A DNA stretch of 64,000 nt from IMG/VR virus record IMGVR_UViG_3300045988_092720; one strand, given 5' to 3'. The stretch's first letter is position 1, and the number at the start of each line of letters is the position of its first letter. A program made the position numbers and the translations under genes. The stretch is from a virus. Positions 15,427 to 58,177 of the stretch are shown in pieces. Under the pieces are notes generated by a model that worked only from the letters and a program-made list of their open reading frames with translations, was not told where the DNA came from and did no database searches.

Positions 15427-15460
15427 AAAATAAAATAAGATGTAGGGGAGGCTTGCTCCC
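15427..15460 (-). terminator. Intrinsic terminator after the polymerase gene.
   Basis: Hairpin GGGGAG-gcttg-CTCCCC at 15444-15460, followed on the minus strand by a U-rich tract (15427-15443). Confidence 0.55.
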
Positions 15461-15492
15461 CTCGTGGACAACCTCAGTCTACCACCCCCTGC

Positions 15493-18411
15493 TCAGGCTG
15501 TCAAGCGGTCGAGCTGACAAGCGTCGGTGATGACCCCTTTGCTAATTCGTAGTGCGTGTACCGTTCCCTTAGTCAGCTTAGTAAAATCAACATCAAAGGT
15601 TACTAACTTTTCCACGCCTGAATTCGTCTGTGCGGTAATAAAAGCATAAGGTTTACCGTGTTTAGTTTTACGTGCAGTTACAGAAAGTATGATAGCAGGC
15701 ACAACATTACCCACACATATACTTGTATCGTATTCATCAAAAATACTATTGAATGTGTATCCTAATGCTTTTAACTCCATAGCACCTTTGCTCAGATTAT
15801 CTTTAGAATTAGCATCAAATTTATATTCACCTTTAGATTTACGTTTATCCTTTAGCCATTGTACATATTGAATATAGTCATTCCTATCATCGCCATCGTC
15901 AATTGCACCACTATAAATTAAACCTTTTAATTGAGTTAAATTCATAGATGCATTCTTTTCTAAGAATTCTTTACCACGTGCACATTCATATGATTTAAGA
16001 TTGCTACATCCTGCAATTGCTCCAAGACCTAAACATACTGTATTCTTAGCAGTAGTACAGTGCTTATCTCCATATATATCAGGAGGTATAACTTTAATAT
16101 TATTCTGTTTAGCATTATCTATAAATACTGATAGTTTTTCTTTGTCTCCAAAGTTGTTATCAAATATAGATGCATAAAATAACTCTGGATAATGTGCTTT
16201 TAAATATGCACATCGCCAAGCAGTTAAACCATATGCGGCACTATGCCCTCTGTTAAATACATAGGAACCACAAGCAATCATTTGGTCAGCAATAGGTCTT
16301 ACCACATCTTCTGTATATCCATGTTCACTAGCACGCTTAACAAATTCGTCTACGGCTTGATTAATTTTATCTAACTCTTTACGACCGATAATGCGTCTCA
16401 TAATATCAGCTTCACCCATTGAATAGCCAGCTAATGTACGTACAATCTGCATAATTTGTTCTTGATATAAAATAACACCCTCAGTATCTTTTAAAATCGG
16501 TTCTAATACAGGGTGTAAATATGTTACAGGCTCTTTGCCTTGTCTTCGTGCTATAAATACCTTGTCCATACCAACATCTAATACGCCAGGTCTTCCTATA
16601 GCTACAGTATCAACTAAATCATATACGCTCTTAGAATGGATACTCTTAACAATATTTGTCATTACGTCTGACTCAATTTGGAAAATACCAATGGTATTGC
16701 CACTCTGTAACAATTCTGCTGTCACTTTATCTTCTAACGGTATACTATGTATATCAAAATCACCAATACGATTAACTGTATTTTCAATAATATCTAATGT
16801 AGCTAAACCTAGAATATCTAATTTAAGGATACCTTGCTTTTCTAAAATATGGAAATCTTCAGCCGCTACATACTGACCGTCTTGATACTCTATTGCACAC
16901 CATTGAGCAGGGTCGCTAGGGAATACTGCAACTGCACTAGCATGAGTACTATAGTTTTCTAAGCGATTTAACATACTTTCTGCCATTTTCTTTAACTTAG
17001 CATCTTTAACTTCACTAATATCGTTGATGTTTTTAGATACTTTAGTTACATCAGATGGTTTCATATTTAATGCCCTACCAGCTTTTTGTACTGCTGCTTT
17101 GTCAGATAAGAAGCCAAATGTTCTTACTGGATACGCATGGGTGTACTTTTCTTGAATATATTGAATAACTTCTTGTCTACGAGACTGTTGAAAATCACAA
17201 TCTATATCACAAGGGGTTACACGTTCTGGGTTTGTAAATCGTTCAAATACGAGATTGTATTGTAATGGGTCAATTTCTGTAATACCCATTAAATAAGCGA
17301 CTAAACTACCACAAACAGAACCACGACCTGCACCAGTAAGCATTCCTTTAGACTTAGCCCATTGTAACATATCATGAATGATACAAAAATAGTTATTATA
17401 ATCAACTTGAGTTAATACTTCAAGTTCATGTTTAACTTGTTTTGCATATTCATCTTTGTTAGGTTTTTTAGCAATACCTAGCTTTTTATATCCATCCCTA
17501 CAATGGTCTAATACATATTTTGCAGGGTCTTTTACTGGGAATACAGGATAATGATTTTGACCAAATTCAATTTCTACATTACACTTATCAATAATATTAC
17601 TAACATTATCATAGTATTTTTGTTCTGGATAAATAGCCTTAAATTCATCTACAGTCCACATATGATAATCTCTACTACCATAATATGTTGACATATGATT
17701 ATATTGCTCTTGATATTTTTGTTCTTCTTTATCGGAACTAGAATTATCTATCCTATATTGTATTTCTGCTAAATCTGCATCTAATAATAAGAAATCTCTA
17801 TGCGATTGCATTTGTTCGGGATACGCATAATGACTATCACCTGTAATAATAATAGGTACATTATATTTATCGCCAAGCTCCATAACTACTTTATTGTATT
17901 CCCATTGCAAAGGAAAATCATGAGGTTGTATTTCTAAATAAAAATCATCACCAAATGTATCTAACATACGTTGTATAAATTCGTCTCTAAGTAATTCATT
18001 TGATAATGGACCAGCAACACAAGCAGTACTAACAATAATATCTTCATGGTATTCTCTTAATGCTTTATAATCAATTAATGGTTTATAATAGTGATGGTAT
18101 GCACCATATGTAGATAGCCTACGTAAGTTGTATAAACCTTCTGTTGATTTTGCTAACAATACCAAGTGATAACTTTCTCTAGTTTTTACATCTAAATCAT
18201 ATGAAAAATAGGCTTCCATACCAAGTATTGGTTTAATACCTGCATTTTGACAAGCAATATAATGTGATGTTAAACCAGATGTAGTACCGTGGTCTGTTAA
18301 CGATACGGCTGAATATCCTATTTCTTTAGCACGTTGTATACGCTCTTCTAAAGATGAATAAGCATCACGCCTACTATAAAAACTATGGCTATGTAAATCT
18401 GTAAAATTCAT
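15493..18411 (-). CDS. DNA polymerase III alpha-like replicative polymerase with N-terminal PHP domain.
   Basis: 972 aa. PHP motif LHSHSFYS...SLTDHGTTSG. Polymerase core of the DnaE/PolC family. Confidence 0.85.
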   Translation of the reverse strand: MNFTDLHSHSFYSRRDAYSSLEERIQRAKEIGYSAVSLTDHGTTSGLTSHYIACQNAGIKPILGMEAYFSYDLDVKTRESYHLVLLAKSTEGLYNLRRLSTYGAYHHYYKPLIDYKALREYHEDIIVSTACVAGPLSNELLRDEFIQRMLDTFGDDFYLEIQPHDFPLQWEYNKVVMELGDKYNVPIIITGDSHYAYPEQMQSHRDFLLLDADLAEIQYRIDNSSSDKEEQKYQEQYNHMSTYYGSRDYHMWTVDEFKAIYPEQKYYDNVSNIIDKCNVEIEFGQNHYPVFPVKDPAKYVLDHCRDGYKKLGIAKKPNKDEYAKQVKHELEVLTQVDYNNYFCIIHDMLQWAKSKGMLTGAGRGSVCGSLVAYLMGITEIDPLQYNLVFERFTNPERVTPCDIDCDFQQSRRQEVIQYIQEKYTHAYPVRTFGFLSDKAAVQKAGRALNMKPSDVTKVSKNINDISEVKDAKLKKMAESMLNRLENYSTHASAVAVFPSDPAQWCAIEYQDGQYVAAEDFHILEKQGILKLDILGLATLDIIENTVNRIGDFDIHSIPLEDKVTAELLQSGNTIGIFQIESDVMTNIVKSIHSKSVYDLVDTVAIGRPGVLDVGMDKVFIARRQGKEPVTYLHPVLEPILKDTEGVILYQEQIMQIVRTLAGYSMGEADIMRRIIGRKELDKINQAVDEFVKRASEHGYTEDVVRPIADQMIACGSYVFNRGHSAAYGLTAWRCAYLKAHYPELFYASIFDNNFGDKEKLSVFIDNAKQNNIKVIPPDIYGDKHCTTAKNTVCLGLGAIAGCSNLKSYECARGKEFLEKNASMNLTQLKGLIYSGAIDDGDDRNDYIQYVQWLKDKRKSKGEYKFDANSKDNLSKGAMELKALGYTFNSIFDEYDTSICVGNVVPAIILSVTARKTKHGKPYAFITAQTNSGVEKLVTFDVDFTKLTKGTVHALRISKGVITDACQLDRLTA

Positions 18412-19196: not shown

Positions 19197-19361
19197 TTAT
19201 AATACCTTCTCTAAATATTCAATATCTCTCATCCAATTGTCACGTTCAGCACACAGTCGTTTATTTGTTTCTTTCAGTTGTTTAATTAACTTTTCATTTT
19301 GCTTAATTAAAGCATTAGTAATTGCAATATTTTCTCTAGTTTTTTCTTTTGTTTGATACAT
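19197..19361 (-). CDS. Small coiled-coil protein (54 aa, MYQTKEKTRENIAIT...). Not in the ORF track.
   Basis: Read by hand. GGAGGT RBS. Lies immediately downstream of a consensus promoter. Confidence 0.4.
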   Translation of the reverse strand: MYQTKEKTRENIAITNALIKQNEKLIKQLKETNKRLCAERDNWMRDIEYLEKVL

Positions 19362-19382
19362 TTTTCTACCTCCATTTACTGC

Positions 19383-19411
19383 ATTATATCATACCTAAAT
19401 AAATTTGTCAA
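19383..19411 (-). promoter_or_regulatory. Consensus sigma-A/sigma-70 promoter: TTGACA, 17-nt spacer, TATAAT.
   Basis: On the minus strand: TTGACAaatttatttaggtatgaTATAATgc, about 20 nt before the ATG of the small ORF. Confidence 0.6.
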
Positions 19412-19437
19412 ATAAAAAAGGACCCCATAAAGGGGTC
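19412..19437 (-). terminator. Intrinsic terminator closing the leftward early unit.
   Basis: Hairpin GACCCC-auaaa-GGGGUC followed by U8 on the minus strand. Confidence 0.7.
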
Positions 19438-19439
19438 TA

Positions 19440-20270
19440 CTAAGTGTAACGTATTACGAAGTGTAATTCAATATTACGCTGAGTAATGTTATTCTTCTTT
19501 GTTTTATATACTAAGTTGTAGTAATGTTATTACGTTCTAAGTGGTAGCGTTATAAATACCTAAAATACTGATACTGTAGAACCGCTACGCTAGGTGAAAT
19601 ACTCACATCGTTAGTTGCTGTAGTTGTAGATAATACCAAGAAGGAATATCTTTGTTCGTATTTTCTTTTTCTTATGTGTATTACCAACTAATCAATATCT
19701 GAACGCTAGTGAAGATATTCTGCGAACGCACCAGTTATGAATACCAAGTAACTGTATCACTTATTGGTAGTAATGTTGAGCATCTACTCTATATCTGTTA
19801 CTACGCACTTCGTTTGTAACTACTTCGTAGTTGATTGTAGTATATATTAATTAGTGAATATCTACTGTATTCTCTACTCGATGATTGCCCCAGTTAGTGC
19901 CGAGGTATTGCCCCAATATACATGGGAGCGTATATACTTGTTTGGTATATAATCGAAACTTCATAGTTAATACTAAGGTAGCCCAGGTGTAGCTTTACCT
20001 ACCACTCAAAAGAGTTTGTTTCGACTGCCATCTACGACGGGACAAAATCTGGGAAAATTGCACGCCAAACAGCCCCTGTCTCACAGCCATATTACCGAGT
20101 TGCTAATTCGGTTCCGTTATTTTCAGTTGGTTTACGTTCTCAACACTATTCCGATATGATGTTTTATAAACATATTTAGTCAATACTCTGGATATACATG
20201 AGACTGCATGAACTTTCAAGGTTTGCCTATCTCCGTGCAATATGTATATTAGCAACCAGATATACTGAGT
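19440..20270 (-). other. ORF-free transcribed region of about 830 nt: a candidate non-coding RNA or an array of very small peptide genes.
   Basis: No ORF of 60 aa or more on either strand. Lies between three tandem strong promoters plus a small gene and a terminator. Internal short repeats (gtagtaatgtt, attacg). No convincing tRNA cloverleaf was found by eye. Confidence 0.3.
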
Positions 20271-20274
20271 TGTG

Positions 20275-20475
20275 TTATCTTACATAACACTTACGTTCAG
20301 ATGTTTTCCATACACTAGAAAATCTTTTGTATTTCTTACAAAACATTTGTGTACCATTCGTAGAATACGAACAATATTTACATCCTTTGCAATATTCTTT
20401 TTTCGGCTTTCTACGAGTGTGTTCAATACGACCACCCATTGAAACGCCATGTGTTCCTTTAGACCACTTTGCCAT
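20275..20475 (-). CDS. Small basic Cys-rich, zinc-ribbon-like protein (66 aa from MAKWSKGTHG).
   Basis: AGGAGA RBS. Cys pattern CKGCKYC...C...C. It is the first gene downstream of the triple promoter. Confidence 0.5.
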   Translation of the reverse strand: MAKWSKGTHGVSMGGRIEHTRRKPKKEYCKGCKYCSYSTNGTQMFCKKYKRFSSVWKTSERKCYVR

Positions 20476-20524
20476 AATTTTCTCCTTTCGGTAGAGCAAG
20501 TTCTGTGGCTCTACCACTACTCAC

Positions 20525-20553
20525 ATTGTAGCACCCTCACTGTCAGCTGTCAA
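20525..20553 (-). promoter_or_regulatory. Promoter P3: TTGACA, 17-nt spacer, TGCTACAAT (extended -10).
   Basis: Minus strand: ggtgTTGACAgctgacagtgagggtgcTACAATg. Confidence 0.6.
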
Positions 20554-20592
20554 CACCTTTGCTGACACCGCACCGTTGCTGGGTTTGTGAGG

Positions 20593-20622
20593 ATTGTAGC
20601 ACAGCCGAGGGCGAACCGTCAA
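20593..20622 (-). promoter_or_regulatory. Promoter P2: TTGACG, 18-nt spacer, TGCTACAAT.
   Basis: Minus strand: cTTGACGgttcgccctcggctgtgcTACAATc. Confidence 0.5.
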
Positions 20623-20668
20623 GCCCACCCCTGACCGCACCACGGAGGAGATAACATTGCCTATAGTT

Positions 20669-20697
20669 ATAGTAACATATAAAAATCAATTTGTCAA
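20669..20697 (-). promoter_or_regulatory. Promoter P1: TTGACA, 17-nt spacer, TACTAT.
   Basis: Minus strand: TTGACAaattgatttttatatgtTACTAT. Confidence 0.5.
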
Positions 20698-20701
20698 ATT
20701 T

Positions 20702-21325
20702 TTAATTGGTATACATTTTTATGAAGTTATAGCGTACATAATATACAGGTTCTTTGTCTGTAATATCATACTTAGCACCGTATACTAATTTGCCATTTTG
20801 TTTATCAATACCAACCTGACTATGAAACTTACCTGCACGGAATTCTTCTTGACCGTATACATTCAATTCATGACGTTCTGGTACTTTAATATCAAATTCA
20901 ACAGTAGATTTTTGGTCCAATACTACTTTACCATTTTCAAACTTTTGTGTTTCATTTTGCTGTAAATCAAATTTCTGCTTTTTACCATTTACTTTGACTA
21001 CAACAGCTGGCTTTTCAATACTAGCTTCTACGTCTGTATCTTCTTGTACATACGTTGGTACATTATTCACATATACCAATTCTTTCTGCTTTGGAACATA
21101 AGATACGGTAGTCTTAGTATTAAGAGTAGCCTTCTCGTTCATTATTTTAGGCTGTAAGGTGGGTGTAGATTGTTCCACGTGTGTTTGCCTATGGAGCATA
21201 TAAAACAGCCCACAGAACGCAAATAACGCAATTAAAATGATAATATAAATCTTAATCTTTACATTCTTCAGGGTGGTAATGATACCAGATAGCTTTTCCA
21301 CGAATAATAGCACCTCCGTCTCCAT
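20702..21325 (-). CDS. Membrane-anchored protein (N-terminal TM/signal-anchor), possibly lysis-associated.
   Basis: One strong N-terminal hydrophobic helix followed by a hydrophilic ~150-aa domain. Overlaps the 3' end of the amidase gene. Start uncertain. Confidence 0.45.
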   Translation of the reverse strand: METEVLLFVEKLSGIITTLKNVKIKIYIIILIALFAFCGLFYMLHRQTHVEQSTPTLQPKIMNEKATLNTKTTVSYVPKQKELVYVNNVPTYVQEDTDVEASIEKPAVVVKVNGKKQKFDLQQNETQKFENGKVVLDQKSTVEFDIKVPERHELNVYGQEEFRAGKFHSQVGIDKQNGKLVYGAKYDITDKEPVYYVRYNFIKMYTN

Positions 21326-21785
21326 CTTCTTGCGGTAATGCAATCAAATCCCAACGCATATCAGGGTCATCATCATAGATAGAATACCCGTCAATAATTG
21401 CCCAGTCATTGTGTGTTTTAAAATGTTCTTTATCAATTTCCCAACCTTTAGCATCAGCAATGGTTTTAACAATCATAGCCATTTTATTAACTTGTGCATC
21501 AGTTGGTGGAACAGTTCCCCATCTAACATTTCCTTCTGTATCTACGCTTGCATCTGCACAGCAAAGAATAGATACACCAATATTACCTGTATTACGATGC
21601 CATGTATGTTTACCAGTAGCATCAAAACTGTTAAAATCAGACCATACACGCCCATCACCTAAAATATTTAAGTGGTAGTAAGGGGAGGTATTTTCATACC
21701 CCCCACCACTCCAATGTAAGGTTACTTGGTCGGCATGGCAATTAGCTGCTAAATAAGCAATATCATTTAGAGTATAAAAAGCCAT
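21252..21785 (-). CDS. N-acetylmuramoyl-L-alanine amidase of the T7-lysozyme / Amidase_2 (PGRP) type; candidate endolysin.
   Basis: Collinear with T7 lysozyme blocks: VTLHWSGG, YYHLNILGDGRV, GKHTWHRNTGNIGVSI, VPPTDAQVNKMAMIVKTIADAKG, FKTHNDW. Confidence 0.7.
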   Translation of the reverse strand: MAFYTLNDIAYLAANCHADQVTLHWSGGGYENTSPYYHLNILGDGRVWSDFNSFDATGKHTWHRNTGNIGVSILCCADASVDTEGNVRWGTVPPTDAQVNKMAMIVKTIADAKGWEIDKEHFKTHNDWAIIDGYSIYDDDPDMRWDLIALPQEDGDGGAIIRGKAIWYHYHPEECKD

Positions 21786-24700
21786 TATTCCTCCTCAATA
21801 CCGTCATATAAACCATCAACAAATGTGTTATAAACATTAGCTTGTTCCTTGACCTTATCAGCCTCCACGGAAGATTTTTTAGGTAAGTATTTATTAGCCT
21901 TGTCAATCGCAGACATTTGTTTCAATTCTCTTGCATCTCTAAGCTGTTTGCCAGTTACACCAAAGTCTTTAATACGTTGTTTGTTTTCTGGAGATGGGTC
22001 ACGCAAGAAGTCATTAATAGCTTCTTTCTTCCCATCTTTAAGCTCTTGATTTGCCATAGTAAGTCTATAAGCTAAATCATTTTCTATAGACTCACGAACA
22101 GGTCTGAAACCTAACAATTTCATAAAACGCTCTTCAGATGTATATGCACCTTTATTTTCAGCATTTTTCCAGTCACGCATATTACCAGTGTATGCTTGAT
22201 AGAAGTTGCCAAGTTGTGGAGATAACGCATGACTTACGCCTGTTACTACATCTCGCCAATCATGACTATTCCTAGCCACATCGCCAAGAGCACCATACGT
22301 AGATAATGTAGGACCTAGTAATTCGCTACCACTACTAGGTGTTAAATCACCAAAGCCAACATTTCGGCTAAAGTCAACTCCAAACATAGATGGTGCACCC
22401 ATAATAGCCATCATCGCTATACGTTGTTTAGTTTGGTCTTTACCAGCCCAATCATACAACACATCTTTTGTTCTATCTGTTAAGCCTTTACCTGTTAGCC
22501 ATTTTAACATATCATCGCCAGCACTCATGAATGGTAACCCCATAAAGCCAGCCATACCCATTGTAATACCAATAAAGCGACTTAATCCTTTATAGTCAAT
22601 GGAGCCATCAGGACCTTTGAATGCTGTAAATAAGAACTCAGCTTCCTTAACACCGAACTTCTTAAATTGCAAGATAGTTTTACCTAGTGTACCAAACTTA
22701 GTAAATAACTGTGGAGAGTCAATATCTGTATAGTCAAAGTTTGTTTTAACTACGAAATCTTTGGCATATTCCATAGCCTTTTTATAAGCCTCTGGATTTT
22801 TAGTGTGTAAATCAGTAGTGTCTAAACCGTGTTTAGCAGCGTATTCTTCGTATGCGTGAATAGCAGCAACCTTACGAGTATAAGCATCGGCTTTCATAAA
22901 GCCTTTCATAGAAAGGTCAAATAATTTACCGAATTTAACTCCACCGATTGTAATTCTGCGATAATCTCCACTATCTAAGAATTCAGATGCTTGGCTTGCA
23001 CTTTCTTCATACACTTCTAAATCATCAAATAATTGACCATATTTACCGTTTTTGCCACTCTTACCAGCTTGTTGCATAGCGTATTTTAATTGTGGCGTAA
23101 AGCCTGTTAAAGCTGCTACGTTAGCTAAAGTACCAAACTGTGCGATAGCGGCAGTAGGTCTAAATACACCTAATTTGAATACAGCCATAGCTTGCATATT
23201 ACGGTTAAGAAGTGTTGTTACCCAATTATCACCCATATGTTTTGTCATATAGGCACCGATAAATGGAATTTCACGACCGATAGTATTTAATACCTTATCA
23301 GTATTATTTGGTGCACCTATTACACGTTGAATATAGTTATGGACAATATCTTGTCGTGCGTTTTTAGCACCTGTACCATTACGACCGTATTGTTTTTCAT
23401 AATTCTCACCATATACTTGTTCATAGTAACGTGTAGCAAAATCTAAGAATGGAGCATTGCCTTGATACTTCGCTTGTGTATTTGCATAATGGTAAATCGC
23501 TTTAATATGGTCTTCATTATGACCAAGCACGCCAGCACGTTTAAGATTATGCTTATTCCACATTTGAGCACCAGAACTACGGTATAAATATGCACTAACA
23601 TTATCGTGTGTTAATACGCCATCTTTATCTTTCTTTAAGAGCTTTTCAAAGTTAGCCATACCAGCTTCTTTTTGTAGTTTTTTATAATCTAAACCAAGCT
23701 CTTTCATACGTTCTTTGTTGTTAATTAGGTTTTGGAAATCATCATAAGTCATTGACTTATCTTTACCTTTTAGGAAGTGGTCAATGAATTTCTTAGTTTC
23801 TGTATAATTACCTTGTACACGATTGAATAATGCTGCGGCATCCTCATCAGACATACGCTCATATACCTTATGTAATTCAGCTTCTTCATCTGTTAAGTTC
23901 GAATAGTAACCATCATAAGATTTAGATGCATCTGCTTGATATCTTTCTCTACGAATAGTCATGTAACCAACACCTTTTTCAACAGGTCTTGAGTCTACAT
24001 ATTTATTCGCATCAGCTTCTGTATCAAAAGAAGTTAGTACCGTATACTGAGGGTAATATCTACCAGTTTCTGGGCTATACTTAACTTCCATTTTGTAAAC
24101 ACCATAACGCTTATGCTCACGTGGAATATAGCCCCATAAGTCAGCAGATGGGTCCTTACCTCGTGATACTTGGTTGTCATTTACGTCTTTATGGATTTGG
24201 TTAAGTACTTGGCGAATACCAACATATTTATCCCACAACCTTTCACTATAGCCTAAGTGTTTAGCATACGCTTTAGACATTTCCATTGCCACCTTGTTTG
24301 CATTAGCTTTATCTTTGTAGGAAGGGATATTTTCCTTACTAGAGATTACTTGGTATACATCCTTATTAACGCCAATATAAACATGATTACCTTTTTCTCT
24401 TTCAGCTTTTACAAACTTACGCATACGCTTATCGTCAGCTAAACCAAATTCCGTGAATGTATCTTCTGGTTTGATAATGGCGTATTTTAATTCACCGTTT
24501 AAATTAACTGCTACTGGTTGAGCAAATTCACGACCACGTTTATCTACTTCACCTAATAGCTCATTCATTTTTTTATCTTCACCATTTTTTACATCCAAAT
24601 CTGCAAACTGTTTATCAAGCAGTTGCACATATTCAGTTTTCTTGCGACGATATGTGCGAGCGGCTACATATGCCTCTTTAATGATTGGCTTTAATTCTGG

Positions 24701-27700
24701 GATTAATTTACGTGCCATAGATGATGGAGATTGTAACATTTTACGGAACCATGCAAAAGATATACCGTCTTCTGATGGATTGATACGCTCAATAATACCA
24801 CCGCCATTTTCCATAATGTCAGCAAGTAATTTTTGTTCAGCTTGGTCAATTCTGTCATTCTTTCTAATTGAATAATCAGTATCTTGCTTAATTTTTGCCA
24901 AAACTTTTGCGATAGGGGCTTCAGGTGTTGTAGTAGCACGATTACGTTGGTGTAATGTATCTAGTTTTTGTACACGTTTTCTATCCGCTAAAGCATCTTG
25001 GAAATGCTCTCTAATTTGTTGTTCACTAAAGATATTTGTATTACCATATGAGAACATTTCATTAATAAACGAATAATATTTTTGGTCTAGTTGTGGATTA
25101 TTACCAAGTTTTGGTACCACCATAGCAGCTAAGAATAATTTATCTTTAGTGTCCATAGGGCTATTGATAATAGCTTGTGGTACATCTAAAAAGTCATGTG
25201 CGTTTTGGTTAGCCTGAGCTAGACCCATAATTAATTTTAAGCTGTTTGTGTCGCTTTCTGGATTGTTGATGCTTTGAATAAATTGTCTAATTCTTGTTCG
25301 TTGTTGAGATTTTCCAGCGAGTGCATCAAGGTTTTTACGTCCAAATTTTCCTTGATGTGAAACTGTTCCATCTTCACTTTGATTAGAGCCATCTTTACGT
25401 ACAACTCCGAATGCTCTTTTAAGATTTTTAGAGGCACGTTGTATAACATCTTCAACAGACTGTGGGTCGTTTTCGCTGACAGATGCAAGTATTTTACCGT
25501 TGCCAACTGCTCTGTATATTTCGCCTGCAAGTCCTTCATCTTTTTCAAGCTCCTCTCTCATTAAGTCTAATGTATCATTTACTACATTTTTTAAGTCAGC
25601 TGTCTTAGTAAAGTCAGTTGCACTATGTAATAATTCATGTACAAATGTGTCATTTGTTGGTGTAATATTATCACTTGTGATATATAATCGACCAGTAGAT
25701 GGCATATATGCACCATTAAATTTCAACCCTAATGGGTCATTATTTACTAATCTATCAGCTACATAAATCTCTAAATTAGGATGTGTACGAATATAATTTA
25801 ATATAGTTACATACGCTTGTTGGTCGCCATTAACTACGTGCATAATAGATTTTAAGATATTACGCATTTCTCCATTTGTAAGTTTACCTAACCCTTTGGA
25901 ACGGTCTGCAACCTTTTTCATGATACCCATTTCAATTTCACTAGGTTCATGGAACTTAGCATTTTTGCTATTAGATACTTTCTTGTCGCCTGTTACAGAC
26001 ATTTGAATGTCATTAGTTGGCACAATTGTATATGTATCATCATTAATAATAACTTCATAGCCTAAACGAGAAGTAAGGTCTTTGTGAGATTTAAGGTAAT
26101 TTTTACCATTTTGGTCTAGTAAATCAGCATCAATAACAATGCCTTTGTTTTGACGAGCAACTTCCGCTAGTGCATGGAATGCATAGTCAGCAACTTCACT
26201 ACCGTTGTTAAATAACGCTGATGGTACATATTCCGCATTAACTATAATTTTACCATCTTTAATTTCACTATCAATAATATCATTCATGGTGATAACACCC
26301 ATATCATATAAGTAACCATCTAATACTTCTTTAAAGTCGTCAGGGTCAATAAATTCTGGCACTTTAATTTCTACTGGGAATTCTTCACCTAGTTTGATAT
26401 CCATTTTAATATCTGTGGTATAGATATCACCTTGATAGTTAGGAATAGATGCATGTAAAACTCCGTCTTTATAAGCACTCAATCGTAAAGCCGTAGACAC
26501 TTGATTTTTTGTCTTTTTGTCTTTTAATTTTTCTTCTGTGATTTTAGAGTTTTTGCTAATGCGGTCATCCATAACCTCTGTAACAACGTCTTTGATTTCA
26601 CTATATACACGTTTAGCTAATGGAGAATTAATATTATGTAGACGTGGTGCACCATTTGGGAATAGTTTCTTGGCACCTACTCTGCCAGCCATTGATTTAT
26701 ATTTGTTCTCATTACCAATAGCAGGATAAAGATGTACTGCACGATTGACTAATCTACCTAGCAAATGGTCGCCATTTGGATTGTCAAGTTCTTCCATCAA
26801 CTTATCCATGCCAATAGCTTTAACACGTGTCAAACCTTTTTGAAGTGCGTTAAGAATGATAAAATTACGCATTCTATCATATCGACTAGCTTGCGTAACA
26901 TCTGAAATATTATAATCTTTGTCGAACCATAAACGAATATTTTCATCAAAATGACTAGGGCTATTCAAGAAAGCATTCAATACAACTTGAGGTATTTTTA
27001 CTTCACCACGATTAACAGCTTCCATTAACTCACGTTGAGATGGGATTTTATAATCAGGTACATTATTGAGAATACCCTTCCAAGCTGGAGCATACATTGG
27101 TTCTTTACGCATTAATTGATTACGCTTAGCAATAATACCGTTGAGTATTTTACGGTATTCAGACTTGGAAATAAATGGATGACTATGTAAATATTGAATA
27201 GCATCGGCAATACTATTAATAATATCCATATGTTTTTCCATAACCGCTTGTTCATCTTTAATATTATCACTAATGTCGATATCACCAGTATCTTCGTTCG
27301 CTTGATGTTTCAAATATTCTCTGAATGCCTGTTTCTCTTTTTTACCTTTATCCGTTTCCATTTGCAAGTCATCAACCATTTTTAATGCATCGACTTCGTT
27401 GATTTGTCCGCCACTTTGGATTTGAGATTTTAATTCAGCTAATTTTTCAACGTCTCGCATTACAGCTTTTTGGTCGTCAGTGACCATGTCAACAGTTCTA
27501 GGACCCCTAGGTCTAGTTTGTTTTTTAGGTTTTGGTTGGGCTGGATTTAAGCCTAGTCGTTCTTCATATGGAGTAACAATAGGTTCTTCGCCTGTAGGAT
27601 TGTCATGTTCGATAGTTTCTGTGTGGTCTTTTTTAACTGGTCTTGCTTCCCATTTTTTATTTGGGTTTGGTACAATAACATTATACGGACCAATATTACC

Positions 27701-30166
27701 ACCAAGCACATCATTATTTGCATTTCTATATTTTAGAGCCTCTTTAGTGAGTGGCATTTTCATGCCAGTTTCACGACCAGTATGAGATAGATATTGCTGT
27801 ATTTTCAATAAACCATCACGTGTTACTCTATCACTATTTAGATAATCGGCAATCATTTGGTCATCACCAGCGATATTACGGTCAGATGTTGCTAATTGTG
27901 TGTTATTAACAACTTTTTCTGGCGTGCCATTCGGACGTACTGCAACTTGTGAGTTTTTTCTACGTGTTTCTTCTGCACTACGTTTAGCTTCATCAATGTT
28001 AGCTTGTAACATTCTGCGTTCGTTAGTAGTTAAGATTTTACGTACGTTATCAAATTGAGGTCCAGTAACATCAATACCATTTGCACCTAAAGTAATAAGT
28101 GTATCTTTGATTTTACTAGCAAGAGCGTGTTTTGCTGGTAAATAATTTGCATCATCTTTTGGAGGAAGTGTATTAATTACTTCTTCCATTTTTTCAGCAA
28201 CATCACGGTTTTCGATATAGCTTTTAGCACTGTCCTGTGTACGCTCTGTATTATCCATGTGTTTAACATAGTTTGTAATACGACCAAGCTCTTCATTTGT
28301 ATAGCCATTTCTTGATTTAATACCAGCTTTAGCTAAATAGTTACGTGGGTTTTTGGCTTGTTCATTGCGTCGAATATCAGAGCTATTAGCATCACGTTTA
28401 CGTGCTTGCATTGCATTATGTACACGATACGCTGCATCTCTTGCTTTGATTGGGTTATCTTTATATTCATGCTCAAAGTATGTTTTATTTGGAGAATTCT
28501 CATATCGTTCATTATGATATGCATTTCTACGTTCATTAATAGCATCAAGCTGAGCTTGGAAAGCATTCTGCTTTTCTCTTTCTTGAATTCTATTTGTAAT
28601 ATCACGCACAGATGTTTGGTCAGGGTTTTCACGTTCAAGGTTAGAGCGTTCTGCTTCTGTTAATTCAATACCAAGTCTATCAGCTTTTTCAGCAAGAGTT
28701 TCTTCTTGTGGTTGCTCCTGAACAGATGGTTCTTCTACTACTTCATTAGAACGTGTCATATCTTCATATAAACTACGAGAAAGTAAATTTGCTTCTTTGT
28801 TGGTAAAACCTAAATTAGCAAAGTTCTCAGCAAACATACGAGGAGATAAATCTTCAGCAGTTTTATCACCATGCAAGCCCATAATATTAGCACGCTCATC
28901 TTGTACAGCTTCCATTGCTGCCGCATAGTCTTCTGGTGCTTTTTTATTCAATACTTGGTTTACAGAATTAGCGAAAGAACTTTCTTCCATCATTGGGGAA
29001 TATGAAGCGTTAGAAATATCATCAACCTCTGTATTACCAAGAGGTGTATTATCAATAAATGTAGGTTCTTCAGCAACGATATCGCCTAAACCATCGTTTT
29101 GAACTATAGGTCCTGCACTATCAGCAATAACATCTTCAGTTGATGTTAAGCCAGCCATTTCGTCAGCTTTATTTATGATTTTATTAGAAGCACCACGAAC
29201 AGCACCACCTACACCGCCTACAGCCATGGAGATGTTAAATGCGTCCTGTGCTGCCATATTCATATCATTGGTCCATGTAGATGGGTCTAACATAGATACT
29301 TGGTCATAGCCCTCTTGACCTTTAATACGACCTTCAATAGCTTGTTGCCATGCTTCTGTATAGCCTTCTACTGCACTGTTAGCTGCATTACTAAGTAAAC
29401 CTTTAACCATTAGTTTACCGCCGTCTTTAGCAAATGCACTAGCTAACATGCCAACCTTACCAGATACACCGATACGGTCAGCTGCATAATCTAACATTGC
29501 AGGTCCCCAACCCTCACTCATAGATTGTCTAAAAGCATCACCTGCTACATCTGTGCCATACCCTGCATTACGATAATCATTGTAAATAGAGCCAGCATTT
29601 TGTACGTTCTCAAGACCAGAACCTACTGCAAGTTCTGTACCGTATTTAGCTACTTTACTTAAACCAGTAGCAACAGAGCCAGCTAATCCCTCAGATACGC
29701 CAGCTCTTGCTAATAAACCACCAATTTTACCTGCGTTTAAAATACCAGCAGTAGTACCGCCTGTAGACATAGCCATAGCTACTTGCGGAACGACATTACC
29801 GACAAATTGACCACCTTGAGCCGCCCAATAGTGAGGATTTGTAACTTTATCTCCCCATGATAAATCAGCAGTATCTGGGATTGTACTTCTGTAAGCTGCT
29901 AGATTAGAATAGTAATTAGCTTCGTTTTCAGTTTTCCCACGTAGCCATTGTGCTGTATCGCTGTCAGATAGGGATAATCCATAAGATACCGCACCTAACA
30001 TATCAGAACCTAAGCGGTCTAAACCAGCACTAAAGTTACCTACAAATTCATCAGCAATGCCATCATAATGTGCCTTGCCCATATAATCATATCCAAGAGT
30101 AGCAAGGTTATTACGATACTGGGCATCAGCATTTCTACTGGCTAACCCGTCTGTCCAATTTGCCAT
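21785..30166 (-). CDS. Giant (2793 aa) virion protein, tape-measure-like or ejection/polyvalent type, with an internal HExxH motif.
   Basis: Gly/Ala-rich N-terminal region. Long helical stretches. Hydrophobic segments near the C-terminus. Sits in the tail module. FVHELLHSATDF lies at aa ~1510 (nt 25625-25639). Confidence 0.55.
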   Translation of the reverse strand: MANWTDGLASRNADAQYRNNLATLGYDYMGKAHYDGIADEFVGNFSAGLDRLGSDMLGAVSYGLSLSDSDTAQWLRGKTENEANYYSNLAAYRSTIPDTADLSWGDKVTNPHYWAAQGGQFVGNVVPQVAMAMSTGGTTAGILNAGKIGGLLARAGVSEGLAGSVATGLSKVAKYGTELAVGSGLENVQNAGSIYNDYRNAGYGTDVAGDAFRQSMSEGWGPAMLDYAADRIGVSGKVGMLASAFAKDGGKLMVKGLLSNAANSAVEGYTEAWQQAIEGRIKGQEGYDQVSMLDPSTWTNDMNMAAQDAFNISMAVGGVGGAVRGASNKIINKADEMAGLTSTEDVIADSAGPIVQNDGLGDIVAEEPTFIDNTPLGNTEVDDISNASYSPMMEESSFANSVNQVLNKKAPEDYAAAMEAVQDERANIMGLHGDKTAEDLSPRMFAENFANLGFTNKEANLLSRSLYEDMTRSNEVVEEPSVQEQPQEETLAEKADRLGIELTEAERSNLERENPDQTSVRDITNRIQEREKQNAFQAQLDAINERRNAYHNERYENSPNKTYFEHEYKDNPIKARDAAYRVHNAMQARKRDANSSDIRRNEQAKNPRNYLAKAGIKSRNGYTNEELGRITNYVKHMDNTERTQDSAKSYIENRDVAEKMEEVINTLPPKDDANYLPAKHALASKIKDTLITLGANGIDVTGPQFDNVRKILTTNERRMLQANIDEAKRSAEETRRKNSQVAVRPNGTPEKVVNNTQLATSDRNIAGDDQMIADYLNSDRVTRDGLLKIQQYLSHTGRETGMKMPLTKEALKYRNANNDVLGGNIGPYNVIVPNPNKKWEARPVKKDHTETIEHDNPTGEEPIVTPYEERLGLNPAQPKPKKQTRPRGPRTVDMVTDDQKAVMRDVEKLAELKSQIQSGGQINEVDALKMVDDLQMETDKGKKEKQAFREYLKHQANEDTGDIDISDNIKDEQAVMEKHMDIINSIADAIQYLHSHPFISKSEYRKILNGIIAKRNQLMRKEPMYAPAWKGILNNVPDYKIPSQRELMEAVNRGEVKIPQVVLNAFLNSPSHFDENIRLWFDKDYNISDVTQASRYDRMRNFIILNALQKGLTRVKAIGMDKLMEELDNPNGDHLLGRLVNRAVHLYPAIGNENKYKSMAGRVGAKKLFPNGAPRLHNINSPLAKRVYSEIKDVVTEVMDDRISKNSKITEEKLKDKKTKNQVSTALRLSAYKDGVLHASIPNYQGDIYTTDIKMDIKLGEEFPVEIKVPEFIDPDDFKEVLDGYLYDMGVITMNDIIDSEIKDGKIIVNAEYVPSALFNNGSEVADYAFHALAEVARQNKGIVIDADLLDQNGKNYLKSHKDLTSRLGYEVIINDDTYTIVPTNDIQMSVTGDKKVSNSKNAKFHEPSEIEMGIMKKVADRSKGLGKLTNGEMRNILKSIMHVVNGDQQAYVTILNYIRTHPNLEIYVADRLVNNDPLGLKFNGAYMPSTGRLYITSDNITPTNDTFVHELLHSATDFTKTADLKNVVNDTLDLMREELEKDEGLAGEIYRAVGNGKILASVSENDPQSVEDVIQRASKNLKRAFGVVRKDGSNQSEDGTVSHQGKFGRKNLDALAGKSQQRTRIRQFIQSINNPESDTNSLKLIMGLAQANQNAHDFLDVPQAIINSPMDTKDKLFLAAMVVPKLGNNPQLDQKYYSFINEMFSYGNTNIFSEQQIREHFQDALADRKRVQKLDTLHQRNRATTTPEAPIAKVLAKIKQDTDYSIRKNDRIDQAEQKLLADIMENGGGIIERINPSEDGISFAWFRKMLQSPSSMARKLIPELKPIIKEAYVAARTYRRKKTEYVQLLDKQFADLDVKNGEDKKMNELLGEVDKRGREFAQPVAVNLNGELKYAIIKPEDTFTEFGLADDKRMRKFVKAEREKGNHVYIGVNKDVYQVISSKENIPSYKDKANANKVAMEMSKAYAKHLGYSERLWDKYVGIRQVLNQIHKDVNDNQVSRGKDPSADLWGYIPREHKRYGVYKMEVKYSPETGRYYPQYTVLTSFDTEADANKYVDSRPVEKGVGYMTIRRERYQADASKSYDGYYSNLTDEEAELHKVYERMSDEDAAALFNRVQGNYTETKKFIDHFLKGKDKSMTYDDFQNLINNKERMKELGLDYKKLQKEAGMANFEKLLKKDKDGVLTHDNVSAYLYRSSGAQMWNKHNLKRAGVLGHNEDHIKAIYHYANTQAKYQGNAPFLDFATRYYEQVYGENYEKQYGRNGTGAKNARQDIVHNYIQRVIGAPNNTDKVLNTIGREIPFIGAYMTKHMGDNWVTTLLNRNMQAMAVFKLGVFRPTAAIAQFGTLANVAALTGFTPQLKYAMQQAGKSGKNGKYGQLFDDLEVYEESASQASEFLDSGDYRRITIGGVKFGKLFDLSMKGFMKADAYTRKVAAIHAYEEYAAKHGLDTTDLHTKNPEAYKKAMEYAKDFVVKTNFDYTDIDSPQLFTKFGTLGKTILQFKKFGVKEAEFLFTAFKGPDGSIDYKGLSRFIGITMGMAGFMGLPFMSAGDDMLKWLTGKGLTDRTKDVLYDWAGKDQTKQRIAMMAIMGAPSMFGVDFSRNVGFGDLTPSSGSELLGPTLSTYGALGDVARNSHDWRDVVTGVSHALSPQLGNFYQAYTGNMRDWKNAENKGAYTSEERFMKLLGFRPVRESIENDLAYRLTMANQELKDGKKEAINDFLRDPSPENKQRIKDFGVTGKQLRDARELKQMSAIDKANKYLPKKSSVEADKVKEQANVYNTFVDGLYDGIEEE

Positions 30167-57969: not shown

Positions 57970-58177
57970 TTTTGAAGTAAAACGCCATTTCCGTGTAGTG
58001 TTTGCTAAACCTACACGTAGTCTTCGATACAGATTATGTCAAGTGGGACGCTCAGAAACTCTACCAAATGGTAATATTGCCATTTATGCAAATCCATTCT
58101 ACACAGACAGTGAGTTTCATCGTAAAGCATCCAATTTAGTTACAGTGGATAGAATTATGGAGGGTGATTTTCTATGA
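57962..58177 (+). CDS. Small basic protein (71 aa), first gene of the coupled cassette.
   Basis: AAAGGAGG RBS. Its stop overlaps the start of the amidoligase gene (ATGA). Confidence 0.45.
   Translation: MPNFEVKRHFRVVFAKPTRSLRYRLCQVGRSETLPNGNIAIYANPFYTDSEFHRKASNLVTVDRIMEGDFL

What the first reader, a model, noticed from the sequence alone, without database searches (positions are those of the whole stretch)
20520..20700. Three tandem near-consensus extended -10 promoters firing leftward into a tiny Cys-rich gene and an ORF-free region
Within 180 bp on the minus strand there are three strong promoter candidates: TTGACA-N17-TACTAT, TTGACG-N18-TGcTACAAT and TTGACA-N17-TGcTACAAT. The latter two are embedded in unusually GC-rich spacers within an AT-rich genome. 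This resembles the tandem strong early promoters that phages use for immediate-early host takeover. They drive only a 66-aa basic zinc-ribbon-like protein and then about 830 nt without ORFs. A hairpin sits in the 5' UTR (GGTAGAGC...GCTCTACC) just before the RBS.
Basis: seen in the sequence. Interest (0 to 1): 0.6.

Follow-up and report, generated by a model that had tools for sequence, protein, structure and literature searches.

The report
Triple promoter driving phage EGFOA RNA
Three strong host-type promoters in a row are really there, and what they most likely drive is a tiny cysteine-rich protein gene fused to a large folded non-coding RNA (the known but unexplained EGFOA RNA) in an uncultured ~65-kb phage.

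Summary
On the minus strand sit P1 (20697-20669), P2 (20622-20593) and P3 (20553-20525), all with a TG-extended -10. Only 11 sites of this quality occur in the window. Three within 200 nt never arose in 100 shuffles.

About 50 related phage contigs carry the same locus. Their intergenic sequences are unrelated between lineages (GC-rich here, AT-rich elsewhere). Nearly all still hold two or three TTGACA-N17-TGnTAyAAT promoters, which argues for real promoters. No transcript data exist.

The 66-aa gene is real (median dN/dS 0.20, four invariant Cys). It has no detectable family or fold match.

The "ORF-free 830 nt" is not empty. It holds an Rfam EGFOA RNA (19952-20058, 73 bits). A covarying 5' domain starts 7 nt after the stop codon (22 of 70 pairs compensatory). 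An intrinsic terminator ends the unit.

Sister phages with the same promoter cassette carry Rfam EGFOA-assoc-1 plus EGFOA at this position.

Best reading: a self-contained, highly transcribed unit for a small protein plus a structured RNA. "Immediate-early host takeover" is untested. Moderately interesting, because it gives an orphan RNA family a defined transcription unit, a phage context and a candidate protein partner.

The parts
20669..20697 (-). P1: TTGACA-N17-TGtTACTAT, starting 5 nt after the stop codon of the 213-aa gene
   Evidence: The -35 and the whole spacer are invariant in 20 distinct relatives. The -10 varies at one position, TACTAT/TAATAT.
20593..20622 (-). P2: TTGACG-N18-TGcTACAAT with a GC-rich spacer (72% GC)
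   Evidence: One relative has TTGACA. The spacer varies at 3-4 positions while TG and the -10 do not.
20525..20553 (-). P3: TTGACA-N17-TGcTACAAT with a GC-rich spacer (65% GC). Predicted start near 20518.
   Evidence: The spacer varies at six or more positions, and L119 has a wholly different spacer. The -35, TG and -10 are invariant.
20489..20516 (-). 5'-proximal leader hairpin (core GGTAGAGC/GCTCTACC). It does not cover the ribosome-binding site.
   Evidence: -12.8 kcal/mol, z -1.9. The stem variants seen in relatives keep pairing through G-U. The hairpin is absent in the L007 and L109 lineages.
20275..20475 (-). Gene for a 66-aa basic protein with four invariant Cys (C29, C32, C46, C63). 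GGAG at 20485-20482.
   Evidence: Median pairwise dN/dS is 0.20. No Pfam or PHROG family. Only 4-5 clusters in billions of proteins.
20272..20290 (-). Hairpin GTGTTAT/ATAACAC that encloses the stop codon of the small gene
   Evidence: A hairpin at the equivalent place folds in all five allele types, weakly in two. In the sister type it is the first helix of Rfam EGFOA-assoc-1.
20059..20268 (-). Covarying 5' RNA domain: a nested multi-helix domain followed by hairpins. Not in Rfam.
   Evidence: helices 1-4, 7 and 8 show compensatory changes. No RF02970 hit at E<=10. The covariance model R1 finds it only in this phage group.
19952..20058 (-). EGFOA RNA (Rfam RF02955)
   Evidence: 73.4 bits against a gathering score of 37.7, E 2.6e-11, full-length match. 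The CCCAG/CUGGG pairing covaries to CCUAG/CUAGG in 4 sequences.
19910..19929 (-). Conserved hairpin GCTCCC...GGGGC on the 3' side of the Rfam model
   Evidence: helix 15; A-U changes to G-C in 8 sequences.
19438..19909 (-). 3' half of the ORF-free region: short ATTAC/GTAAT-type hairpins and ACGAAGT motifs. Structure and role unresolved.
   Evidence: Only one hairpin, AACTAC-GAA-GTAGTT (19830-19816), shows a compensatory change.
19412..19437 (-). Intrinsic terminator (GACCCCtttatGGGGTC followed by a T run) that closes the unit
   Evidence: Conserved in the window's lineage. Absent in the L014 and L015 lineages.
19383..19411 (-). Next promoter, a perfect TTGACA-N17-TGaTATAAT, heading the replication module

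Best explanation
P1, P2 and P3 are genuine promoters for the host's primary sigma factor, of the TG-extended -10 type common in Firmicutes. They are stacked in tandem to give very frequent initiation.

Together they head a short transcription unit that lies between the lysis genes and the replication module of an uncultured ~65-kb phage that looks virulent. The transcript is predicted to be about 1.1-1.25 kb and to contain:
- a leader with a 5'-proximal hairpin, probably a stabiliser because it leaves the ribosome-binding site free;
- the gene for a 66-aa basic protein with four invariant cysteines;
- starting 7 nt after the stop codon, a large folded RNA made of a lineage-specific 5' domain and the conserved EGFOA core;
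- a further ~470 nt of unresolved character, ending at an intrinsic terminator.

The point of three promoters would be a high dose of the RNA, and of its possible protein partner.

Shown: the sequence elements, their conservation, purifying selection on the gene, the Rfam match, and the covariation.

Inferred: that all three promoters fire, that gene and RNA are one transcript, the timing of expression, and any function.
For: The cluster is far beyond chance.

About 50 related contigs keep two or three TTGACA-N17-TGnTAyAAT sites before the small gene. They do so in at least four intergenic versions that do not align with one another.

Among 20 distinct sequences of the window's lineage, 2 of 42 hexamer and TG positions vary, against 54 of 191 others (Fisher p = 6e-4). 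L119 has a different P3 spacer with the same hexamers.

Many copies show the TRTGn form of the -16 region.

Other single promoters of the same quality head gene groups in the replication module (19411, 15504, 12147, 5189). Apart from one site inside the 2793-aa gene (26274), none lies in the structural block.

Cargo: EGFOA at 73.4 bits. 70 predicted pairs are 99.1% paired, against 34-50% when partners are slid. 22 pairs show compensatory change, against 1-2 in the slid controls.

No terminator and no conserved promoter lies between the gene and the RNA.

Sister phages with the same promoter cassette carry EGFOA-assoc-1 (305 bits, starting inside the last codons of their small gene) plus EGFOA.

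Gene: median dN/dS 0.20.
Against: There is no transcript or start-site evidence of any kind, and the host is unknown.

Part of the invariance statistic is conditioned on the patterns used to collect and anchor the loci: the P2 -10 for loci L119-L139, and the P1 -35 as the anchor.

In the window's lineage no terminator follows the upstream late gene, so late read-through could also supply the RNA.

Some relatives show only one site at the strict threshold, or lose the TG (L097-L104).

The hairpin is not conserved in all lineages.

The 3' half shows no covariation support.

In two lineages the unit has no terminator, so there the promoters may also serve the downstream replication genes.
Confidence: 0.72

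Rival explanations
1. Only one promoter is used, most likely P3, which is the best match and has the hairpin right at its predicted start. The others would be decaying duplicates or spare copies with little activity.
For: P2 and P3 look like a duplicated module: both have GGTGCGGT..CAG-N8-TTGAC...TGCTACAAT. Copy number varies between lineages from 2 to 3, and is apparently 1 at the strict threshold in some. P1 and P2 match 10/12 against 11/12 for P3.
Against: The hexamers and TG of P1 and P2 stay intact while neighbouring bases change. Unrelated AT-rich versions also keep two or three perfect or near-perfect copies, each with its own upstream motif. That is not what decay predicts.
Confidence: 0.13
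2. The tandem promoters and the non-coding stretch serve DNA replication. Transcription from stacked promoters would activate or prime an origin in the 3' half (19438-19909), as at the T7 primary origin behind promoters phi1.1A and phi1.1B. This is not exclusive of the main explanation.
For: The unit sits directly upstream of the replication module: Pol III alpha, Rad52, primase-helicase. The 3' half is non-coding, shows no RNA covariation, and is rich in short inverted repeats (ATTAC...GTAAT) and ACGAAGT repeats. The type of the 3' half travels with the phage backbone rather than with the RNA cargo.
Against: The 5' two-fifths of the region is demonstrably constrained as RNA. The ACGAAGT motif is enriched genome-wide, not only here (17 observed against 5 expected; 3 here). 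No origin-binding protein or iteron array was identified. The T7 comparison comes from memory.
Confidence: 0.08
3. The GC-rich block is itself a functional RNA leader or a protein-binding element. Its promoter resemblance would be incidental, and the region would be transcribed by read-through from the late operon.
For: GC of 0.52-0.61 in an AT-rich genome suggests constraint. The P2-to-ATG stretch folds at -36.7 kcal/mol with z about -2. This lineage has no terminator after the late gene.
Against: The candidate stems are broken in relatives: TGTCAGC/GCTGACA becomes GCTCAGC/ACCGACA without compensation. Other lineages replace the block with unrelated AT-rich sequence that again contains consensus promoters, preceded there by a terminator. 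GC-rich spacers also occur in single promoters at 15504 and 5189. No Rfam hit covers the block.
Confidence: 0.04
4. The unit is a moron-like accessory cassette with its own promoters and its own terminator. It would be expressed from a resident prophage, or constitutively, rather than as an early lytic function.
For: The unit is bracketed by terminators in most lineages and follows the lysis genes, a classic moron position. The central cargo is swapped between backbones. Two contigs that carry the locus are 527 kb and 952 kb long.
Against: No integrase or repressor was found among the ORFs scanned. The genome carries its own Pol III alpha, RNR, ThyX and primase-helicase, which suggests a virulent phage. 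The large contigs may be assembly chimeras. The locus is present in every relative found, so it is not accessory in the usual sense.
Confidence: 0.03

Closest known systems
T7 early promoters A1, A2 and A3 (three tandem strong host-polymerase promoters; from memory)
   Same: Several near-consensus host-sigma promoters stacked within about 200 bp in a phage, all firing in one direction.
   Different: The T7 set heads the early protein-coding operon at the genome end. Here the set lies internally, between the lysis and replication modules, and its immediate product is a tiny gene plus a structured RNA closed by a terminator. Timing is unknown here.
Tandem P1-P2 promoters of bacterial rRNA operons (from memory)
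   Same: Stacked promoters that give a high output of a stable, structured, non-coding RNA.
   Different: There is no evidence here for growth-rate or stringent control, and no homology. The cargo includes a translated ORF.
EGFOA RNA, Rfam RF02955 (Weinberg et al. 2017, PMC5737381; oligomeric cryo-EM structures in bioRxiv 10.64898/2026.07.01.735769)
   Same: The window holds a full-length match well above the gathering score. It lies in a large stretch without annotated genes, as the preprint describes for the family.
   Different: Here it is embedded in a longer conserved RNA and preceded by a small conserved gene and a promoter stack. EGFOA copies in bacterial genomes (Paenibacillus, Lysinibacillus, Brevibacillus and others) lack the small gene, strong promoters (one isolated TTGAAA-N18-TATAAT site about 1.1 kb upstream in L067) and the 5' domain.
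EGFOA-assoc-1 RNA, Rfam RF02970
   Same: It occupies the same position, between the small gene and EGFOA, in sister phages that share this promoter cassette. The overall layout looks similar by eye: a hairpin over the stop codon, a nested multi-helix domain, then several hairpins.
   Different: The window's 5' domain gives no RF02970 hit at E<=10. A model built from it does not find the RF02970 regions. It is either a different domain or one diverged beyond detection.
TG-extended -10 (TRTGn) promoters of Gram-positive bacteria (Helmann 1995; Voskuil and Chambliss 1998; from memory)
   Same: -35 TTGACA, 17-18 nt spacing, TG at -15/-14 (often TRTG), and a TAnAAT -10.
   Different: Nothing unusual in the elements themselves. 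What is unusual is the GC-rich spacers (65-76% GC) in a genome of roughly 30-35% GC. Four promoters in the window share this.
GOLLD and ROOL large ornate RNAs of phages and prophages (Weinberg 2009, 2017; from memory)
   Same: Large, intricately folded RNAs of unknown function carried by phages of Firmicutes. Like EGFOA they are reported to form RNA-only multimers.
   Different: No sequence or model match. This RNA is smaller and is coupled to a small protein gene.

Membership tests
Primary-sigma (sigma-A/sigma-70) extended -10 promoter | -35 hexamer close to TTGACA | tested here: met
   P1 6/6, P2 5/6, P3 6/6.
Primary-sigma (sigma-A/sigma-70) extended -10 promoter | Spacer of 17 +/- 1 nt with TG one base upstream of the -10 | tested here: met
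   Spacers of 17, 18 and 17 nt. TGt, TGc and TGc precede the -10 hexamers.
Primary-sigma (sigma-A/sigma-70) extended -10 promoter | -10 hexamer close to TATAAT, with A at position 2 and T at position 6 | tested here: met
   TACTAT (4/6), TACAAT (5/6), TACAAT (5/6).
Primary-sigma (sigma-A/sigma-70) extended -10 promoter | Elements conserved across relatives more than their surroundings | tested here: met
   2 of 42 positions vary against 54 of 191 others. Unrelated intergenic versions keep the elements. Caveat: the invariance is partly conditioned on the retrieval patterns.
Primary-sigma (sigma-A/sigma-70) extended -10 promoter | Transcripts start 6-8 nt downstream of the -10 | not testable with these tools
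   No transcript data are available, and the host is unknown.
EGFOA RNA (Rfam RF02955) | Covariance-model score at or above the gathering score of 37.7 bits over the full model | tested here: met
   73.4 bits, model positions 1-108 of 108, window 20058-19952 on the minus strand.
EGFOA-assoc-1 RNA (Rfam RF02970) | Covariance-model score at or above the gathering score of 224.5 bits | tested here: not met
   No hit at all at E<=10 over 19300-20800. Sister loci L127 and L133 score 304-305 bits at the same position.
Zinc ribbon or other zinc-binding small protein | Two CxxC (or CxxH) knuckles on beta-hairpins | tested here: not met
   There is one invariant CxxC (C29, C32) plus the single Cys C46 and C63. 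Four ligands are available, so zinc binding remains possible.
Zinc ribbon or other zinc-binding small protein | Match to a known family or fold | tested here: not met
   No Pfam or PHROG hit. The AlphaFold2 model has mean pLDDT 65. Foldseek against the PDB gives nothing below E = 1.
Protein-coding gene | Purifying selection on the reading frame across homologues | tested here: met
   26 distinct DNA alleles and 21 distinct proteins. Median dN/dS is 0.20 and the maximum is 0.67.
Intrinsic (Rho-independent) terminator | GC-rich stem-loop followed directly by a T run | tested here: met
   GACCCCtttatGGGGTC then CTTTTTTATT at 19437-19412. Conserved in 10 relatives.
5'-terminal stabiliser hairpin of Firmicute mRNAs (ermC, aprE and SP82 type; from memory) | A stable stem-loop within a few nt of the 5' end that leaves the ribosome-binding site free | tested here: inconclusive
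   The geometry fits only if P3 starts near 20518, and the start is predicted, not mapped. Half-life cannot be tested. The hairpin is absent in two lineages.

The most novel reading that the evidence does not exclude
The small four-Cys basic protein and the composite RNA (5' domain plus EGFOA) form one co-adapted module, either a phage ribonucleoprotein or an RNA-only multimeric scaffold with a protein cofactor. The promoter stack would make it in very large amounts from the start of infection. Lineages would exchange it as a cassette because it is under diversifying selection, for example as an anti-defence, exclusion or takeover device.

This is consistent with three results:
- Protein allele and RNA 5'-domain type are perfectly linked (five types), while the promoters and the 3' tail recombine independently.
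- The RNA structure begins inside or at the end of the ORF.
- EGFOA RNAs are reported to assemble into trimers and dimers.
Probability: 0.2. Interest if true: 0.8.

Novelty: new variant of a known kind. Interest (0 to 1): 0.5.

Why it matters
EGFOA and EGFOA-assoc-1 are orphan RNA families. The preprint I could read describes EGFOA as putative small RNAs in unusually large gene-free regions. It reports cryo-EM oligomers but no biology.

This locus supplies a concrete, testable setting:
- a defined phage group;
- a fixed genomic position;
- a promoter stack and, in this lineage, a terminator that bound the transcript;
- an overlooked small protein gene whose alleles travel with the RNA's 5' domain.

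That makes expression, processing, protein binding and knockout experiments straightforward to design.

The promoters themselves are ordinary in kind. They are useful as a compact, probably very strong natural promoter stack for AT-rich Gram-positive-type hosts.

Tried and rejected
- DNA search of the locus against 50,697 deposited phage genomes found no match. The Pol III alpha protein has no phage relative above about 32% identity, so there is no cultured relative and no host.
- No tRNA or tmRNA in the window.
- An RNA or operator hairpin around the P3 -35 (TGTCAGC/GCTGACA) was rejected, because relatives break it without compensation.
- A separate conserved promoter just upstream of EGFOA (TTGACT at 20183) was rejected. 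The -10 is poor and the spacing is not conserved across types.
- The GC-rich cassette was searched in viral contigs for other contexts. It occurs only at this locus in this phage group.
- Homology of the window's 5' domain to EGFOA-assoc-1, or its presence next to bacterial EGFOA copies, was not detected.
- The structure of the 3' half has no covariation support within the lineage.
- A fold or family for the small protein was not found.
- No supplementary text is held for Weinberg 2017, so the original description of EGFOA could not be read.
- A literature search for the host gave nothing useful.
A five-sequence alignment was used instead.

Full report
**Observation.** Reading the minus strand and the consensus scan confirm three promoter-like sites:
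- P1: TTGACA-N17-TGtTACTAT, 20697-20669.
- P2: TTGACG-N18-TGcTACAAT, 20622-20593.
- P3: TTGACA-N17-TGcTACAAT, 20553-20525.

GC reaches 0.52-0.61 across P2 and P3, against 0.23-0.38 in the flanks.

Sites with at least 10/12 matches plus TG number only 11 in the whole window on both strands. Dinucleotide shuffles give 3.5 +/- 1.9. None of 100 shuffles had three on one strand within 200 nt. The Poisson expectation is about 2e-5.

The hairpin (20516-20489, -12.8 kcal/mol) starts 2-4 nt after the predicted P3 start and leaves the GGAG at 20485-20482 free.

That stretch ends at a good intrinsic terminator (19437-19421). A perfect TTGACA-N17-TGaTATAAT promoter follows at once (19411-19383).

**Context.** The window is most of an uncultured ~65-kb phage.
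- Terminase, an SU10-type portal, structural genes, a 2793-aa protein, an amidase (21252-21785) and a 213-aa membrane protein run leftward down to 20702.
- After the unit come Pol III alpha, Rad52, primase-helicase, RNR and ThyX.
- No integrase was found among the ORFs scanned.
- There is no close cultured relative.
- Single promoters of the same quality head gene groups in the replication module (19411, 15504, 12147, 5189). Apart from one site inside the 2793-aa gene (26274), none lies in the structural block.
- Four strong promoters (20622, 20553, 15504, 5189) share GC-rich spacers, so that trait belongs to the phage and not to this cluster alone.
- The promoter at 15504 is also followed by a GC hairpin and a ribosome-binding site.

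**Are they promoters?** I collected relatives four ways:
- an EGFOA sequence pattern;
- the small protein;
- a protein-alignment scan of metagenomes;
- the GC-rich cassette.

Every relative has the same layout: the 213-aa gene, an intergenic region, the small gene, a structured RNA, then the next module.

The intergenic regions fall into versions that do not align with one another:
- the GC-rich version seen here;
- AT-rich versions with two or three promoters, each preceded by CTTCATCAAACTTTCAT and an A-tract;
- the L013 type, with two promoters and a ~110-nt leader;
- L097, with two promoters and a ~250-nt leader.

Almost all hold two or three TTGACA-N17-TGnTAyAAT sites, many at 12/12.

Within the window's lineage there are 20 distinct sequences. 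Two of 42 hexamer and TG positions vary, against 54 of 191 others (p = 6e-4). L119 has an entirely different P3 spacer between unchanged hexamers.

One caveat applies. Some loci were retrieved or anchored with patterns that include the P2 -10 or the P1 -35. The earlier set, obtained independently, gave the same picture.

Candidate stems around the -35 boxes are broken in relatives, which argues against an RNA or operator reading of the GC-rich block.

I conclude that these are real promoters, with tandem multiplicity as a conserved property of the locus. Nothing here shows when they fire.

**The small gene.** There are 26 distinct DNA alleles and 21 distinct proteins. Median pairwise dN/dS is 0.20. 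Invariant residues include C29, C32, C46 and C63.

A third, more distant allele has the same Cys spacing: MSRKKYKINRG...CGVC...FC...KC, 68 aa.

The family is tiny, with 4-5 clusters in billions of proteins. It has no Pfam or PHROG match. The AlphaFold2 model is only moderately confident (pLDDT 65, beta-hairpins over residues 34-63). It has no PDB fold match. "Zinc-ribbon-like" therefore remains a guess.

**The "ORF-free" region.** Rfam places a full-length EGFOA RNA at 20058-19952 on the same strand (73.4 bits).

I aligned 26 distinct relatives over 20290-19898. RNAalifold predicts 70 pairs, and 22 of them show compensatory changes. On that structure 99.1% of cells pair, against 34-50% when partners are slid by 1-3 columns. 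The 22 compensatory pairs compare with 1-2 in the slid controls. The structure was derived from the same alignment, which favours it, but the margin is large.

The 5' domain starts at 20268, 7 nt after the stop codon. It has a long-range helix enclosing further helices, including a hairpin with an invariant CUUGAAA loop and a fully covarying stem. Several hairpins follow.

A hairpin encloses the stop codon in all allele types, although it is weak in two.

CCCAG/CUGGG, left unpaired in the Rfam model, covaries to CCUAG/CUAGG.

Sister phages with the same GC-rich promoter cassette carry Rfam EGFOA-assoc-1 at this position. It scores 304-305 bits, the model begins in the last eight codons of their small gene, and a weaker EGFOA (49.5 bits) follows.

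The window's 5' domain is not EGFOA-assoc-1 by model search in either direction. It is also absent beside EGFOA copies in bacterial genomes. I treat it as an undescribed EGFOA-associated domain.

The 3' half (19909-19438) has short ATTAC/GTAAT hairpins and ACGAAGT motifs but no covariation support.

**One transcript?** No terminator and no conserved promoter lies between the gene and the RNA, and the RNA fold begins at the ORF's end. Co-transcription from P1-P3 is therefore the simplest reading, but it is inferred.

In the L014 and L015 lineages the unit lacks the closing terminator, and L015 also lacks a new promoter. There the stack may also feed the replication genes.

In the window's lineage there is no terminator upstream of P1, unlike the other lineages. 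Late read-through may therefore add to the output.

**Mosaicism.** Signature typing of all loci shows three things:
- The protein allele and the RNA 5'-domain type are always linked: 1 with A, 2 with B, C with C, 3 with assoc-1, and L105 with D.
- The promoter cassette type travels with the type of the 3' tail, that is, with the phage backbone.
- The central cargo is exchanged between backbones.

Physical adjacency can explain the protein-RNA linkage, but it also fits a co-adapted protein-RNA module.

A preprint reports that EGFOA RNAs form trimers and strand-swapped dimers. If assembly depends on concentration, a promoter stack would make sense. That is speculation.

In kind, the promoters are ordinary. 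The unit as a whole is a new variant built around known but unexplained RNA families. Function is unknown. The mechanism I commit to is high-output, host-polymerase transcription of a small-protein-plus-structured-RNA unit (confidence about 0.7).

Noticed in passing
window 15444-15504 (-): A second promoter with a very GC-rich spacer (TTGACA-GCCTGAGCAGGGGGTGG-TAGACT, with TG). A GGGGAG/CTCCCC hairpin and a ribosome-binding site follow it, ahead of the Rad52-family gene. This is the same promoter-hairpin-RBS layout as P3. Another GC-rich-spacer promoter lies at 5189-5161.
   Followed up: partly
window 19438-19909 (-): The 3' half of the ORF-free region holds several short hairpins with the same arms (ATTAC-N3-5-GTAAT) and ACGAAGT motifs. 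ACGAAGT occurs 17 times in the window against 5 expected, 3 of them here. Equivalent AATTAC...GTAATT repeats sit before the next promoter in other lineages. They could be operators, origin elements or RNA hairpins.
   Followed up: partly
L007, L014, L105, L109, L111-L117 (upstream of the small gene): In the AT-rich lineages every promoter copy is preceded by CTTCATCAAACTTTCAT, which is two TTCAT repeats 11 bp apart, plus an A-tract at about -46 to -38. This could be an UP element or a regulator site. The window's P2 and P3 instead share GGTGCGGT(GT)CAG-N8 upstream, and that motif is less conserved.
   Followed up: partly
L013, L015, L097-L104 leaders; L118 positions 100-330: Leaders of the small gene in other lineages carry hairpins with a conserved loop and covarying stems. 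CCGTAGAGCAUAUG occurs once in the L013 type and twice in L097. The distant L118 has three hairpins with UUCGCA loops. The window's hairpin shares GUAGAGC, but there it lies in the stem. These may be protein-binding sites.
   Followed up: no
L104 (BNJT01000377.1, 952 kb) and L099 (BNJS01001657.1, 527 kb): Two metagenome contigs far larger than the ~65-kb phage carry the locus, one of them in mid-contig. This means either an integrated or host-linked form or an assembly chimera. It could reveal the host.
   Followed up: no
L140 (ENA ERZ13616057 NODE_36547), 835-1853: A distant homologue of the small protein (P0008, 68 aa, GVSMGGTIEYTR...CNKC...) is also followed by about 800 nt with no called gene, relatively GC-rich and with a long hairpin at 1668-1768. 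There is no EGFOA or assoc-1 hit. The arrangement of a small protein followed by a long non-coding stretch may therefore be older than EGFOA.
   Followed up: partly
window 58328-58356 (-): A perfect 12/12 TG-extended promoter on the minus strand lies inside the plus-strand 575-aa gene (amidoligase-like, 58174-59901). It is either an antisense promoter or chance.
   Followed up: no
window 21785-30166 (-): A single 2793-aa ORF sits directly upstream of the amidase. It is presumably a giant virion or ejection protein and was not analysed.
   Followed up: no
L024, L026, L048 (Paenibacillus), about +700 to +1200 after EGFOA: The EGFOA copies in bacterial genomes lie in long stretches without convincing ORFs. 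The three Paenibacillus loci share conserved spurious-looking reading frames about 0.7-1.2 kb downstream. This suggests further conserved non-coding sequence there.
   Followed up: no
A2 columns 148-153 with 355-360 (window about 20150-20145 with 19957-19952): RNAalifold pairs AUCGAA, upstream of EGFOA, with the UUCGAU that the Rfam model pairs with GUCGAAAC inside EGFOA. Two mutually exclusive helices are therefore possible. Only one-sided changes are seen, so this is undecided.
   Followed up: no
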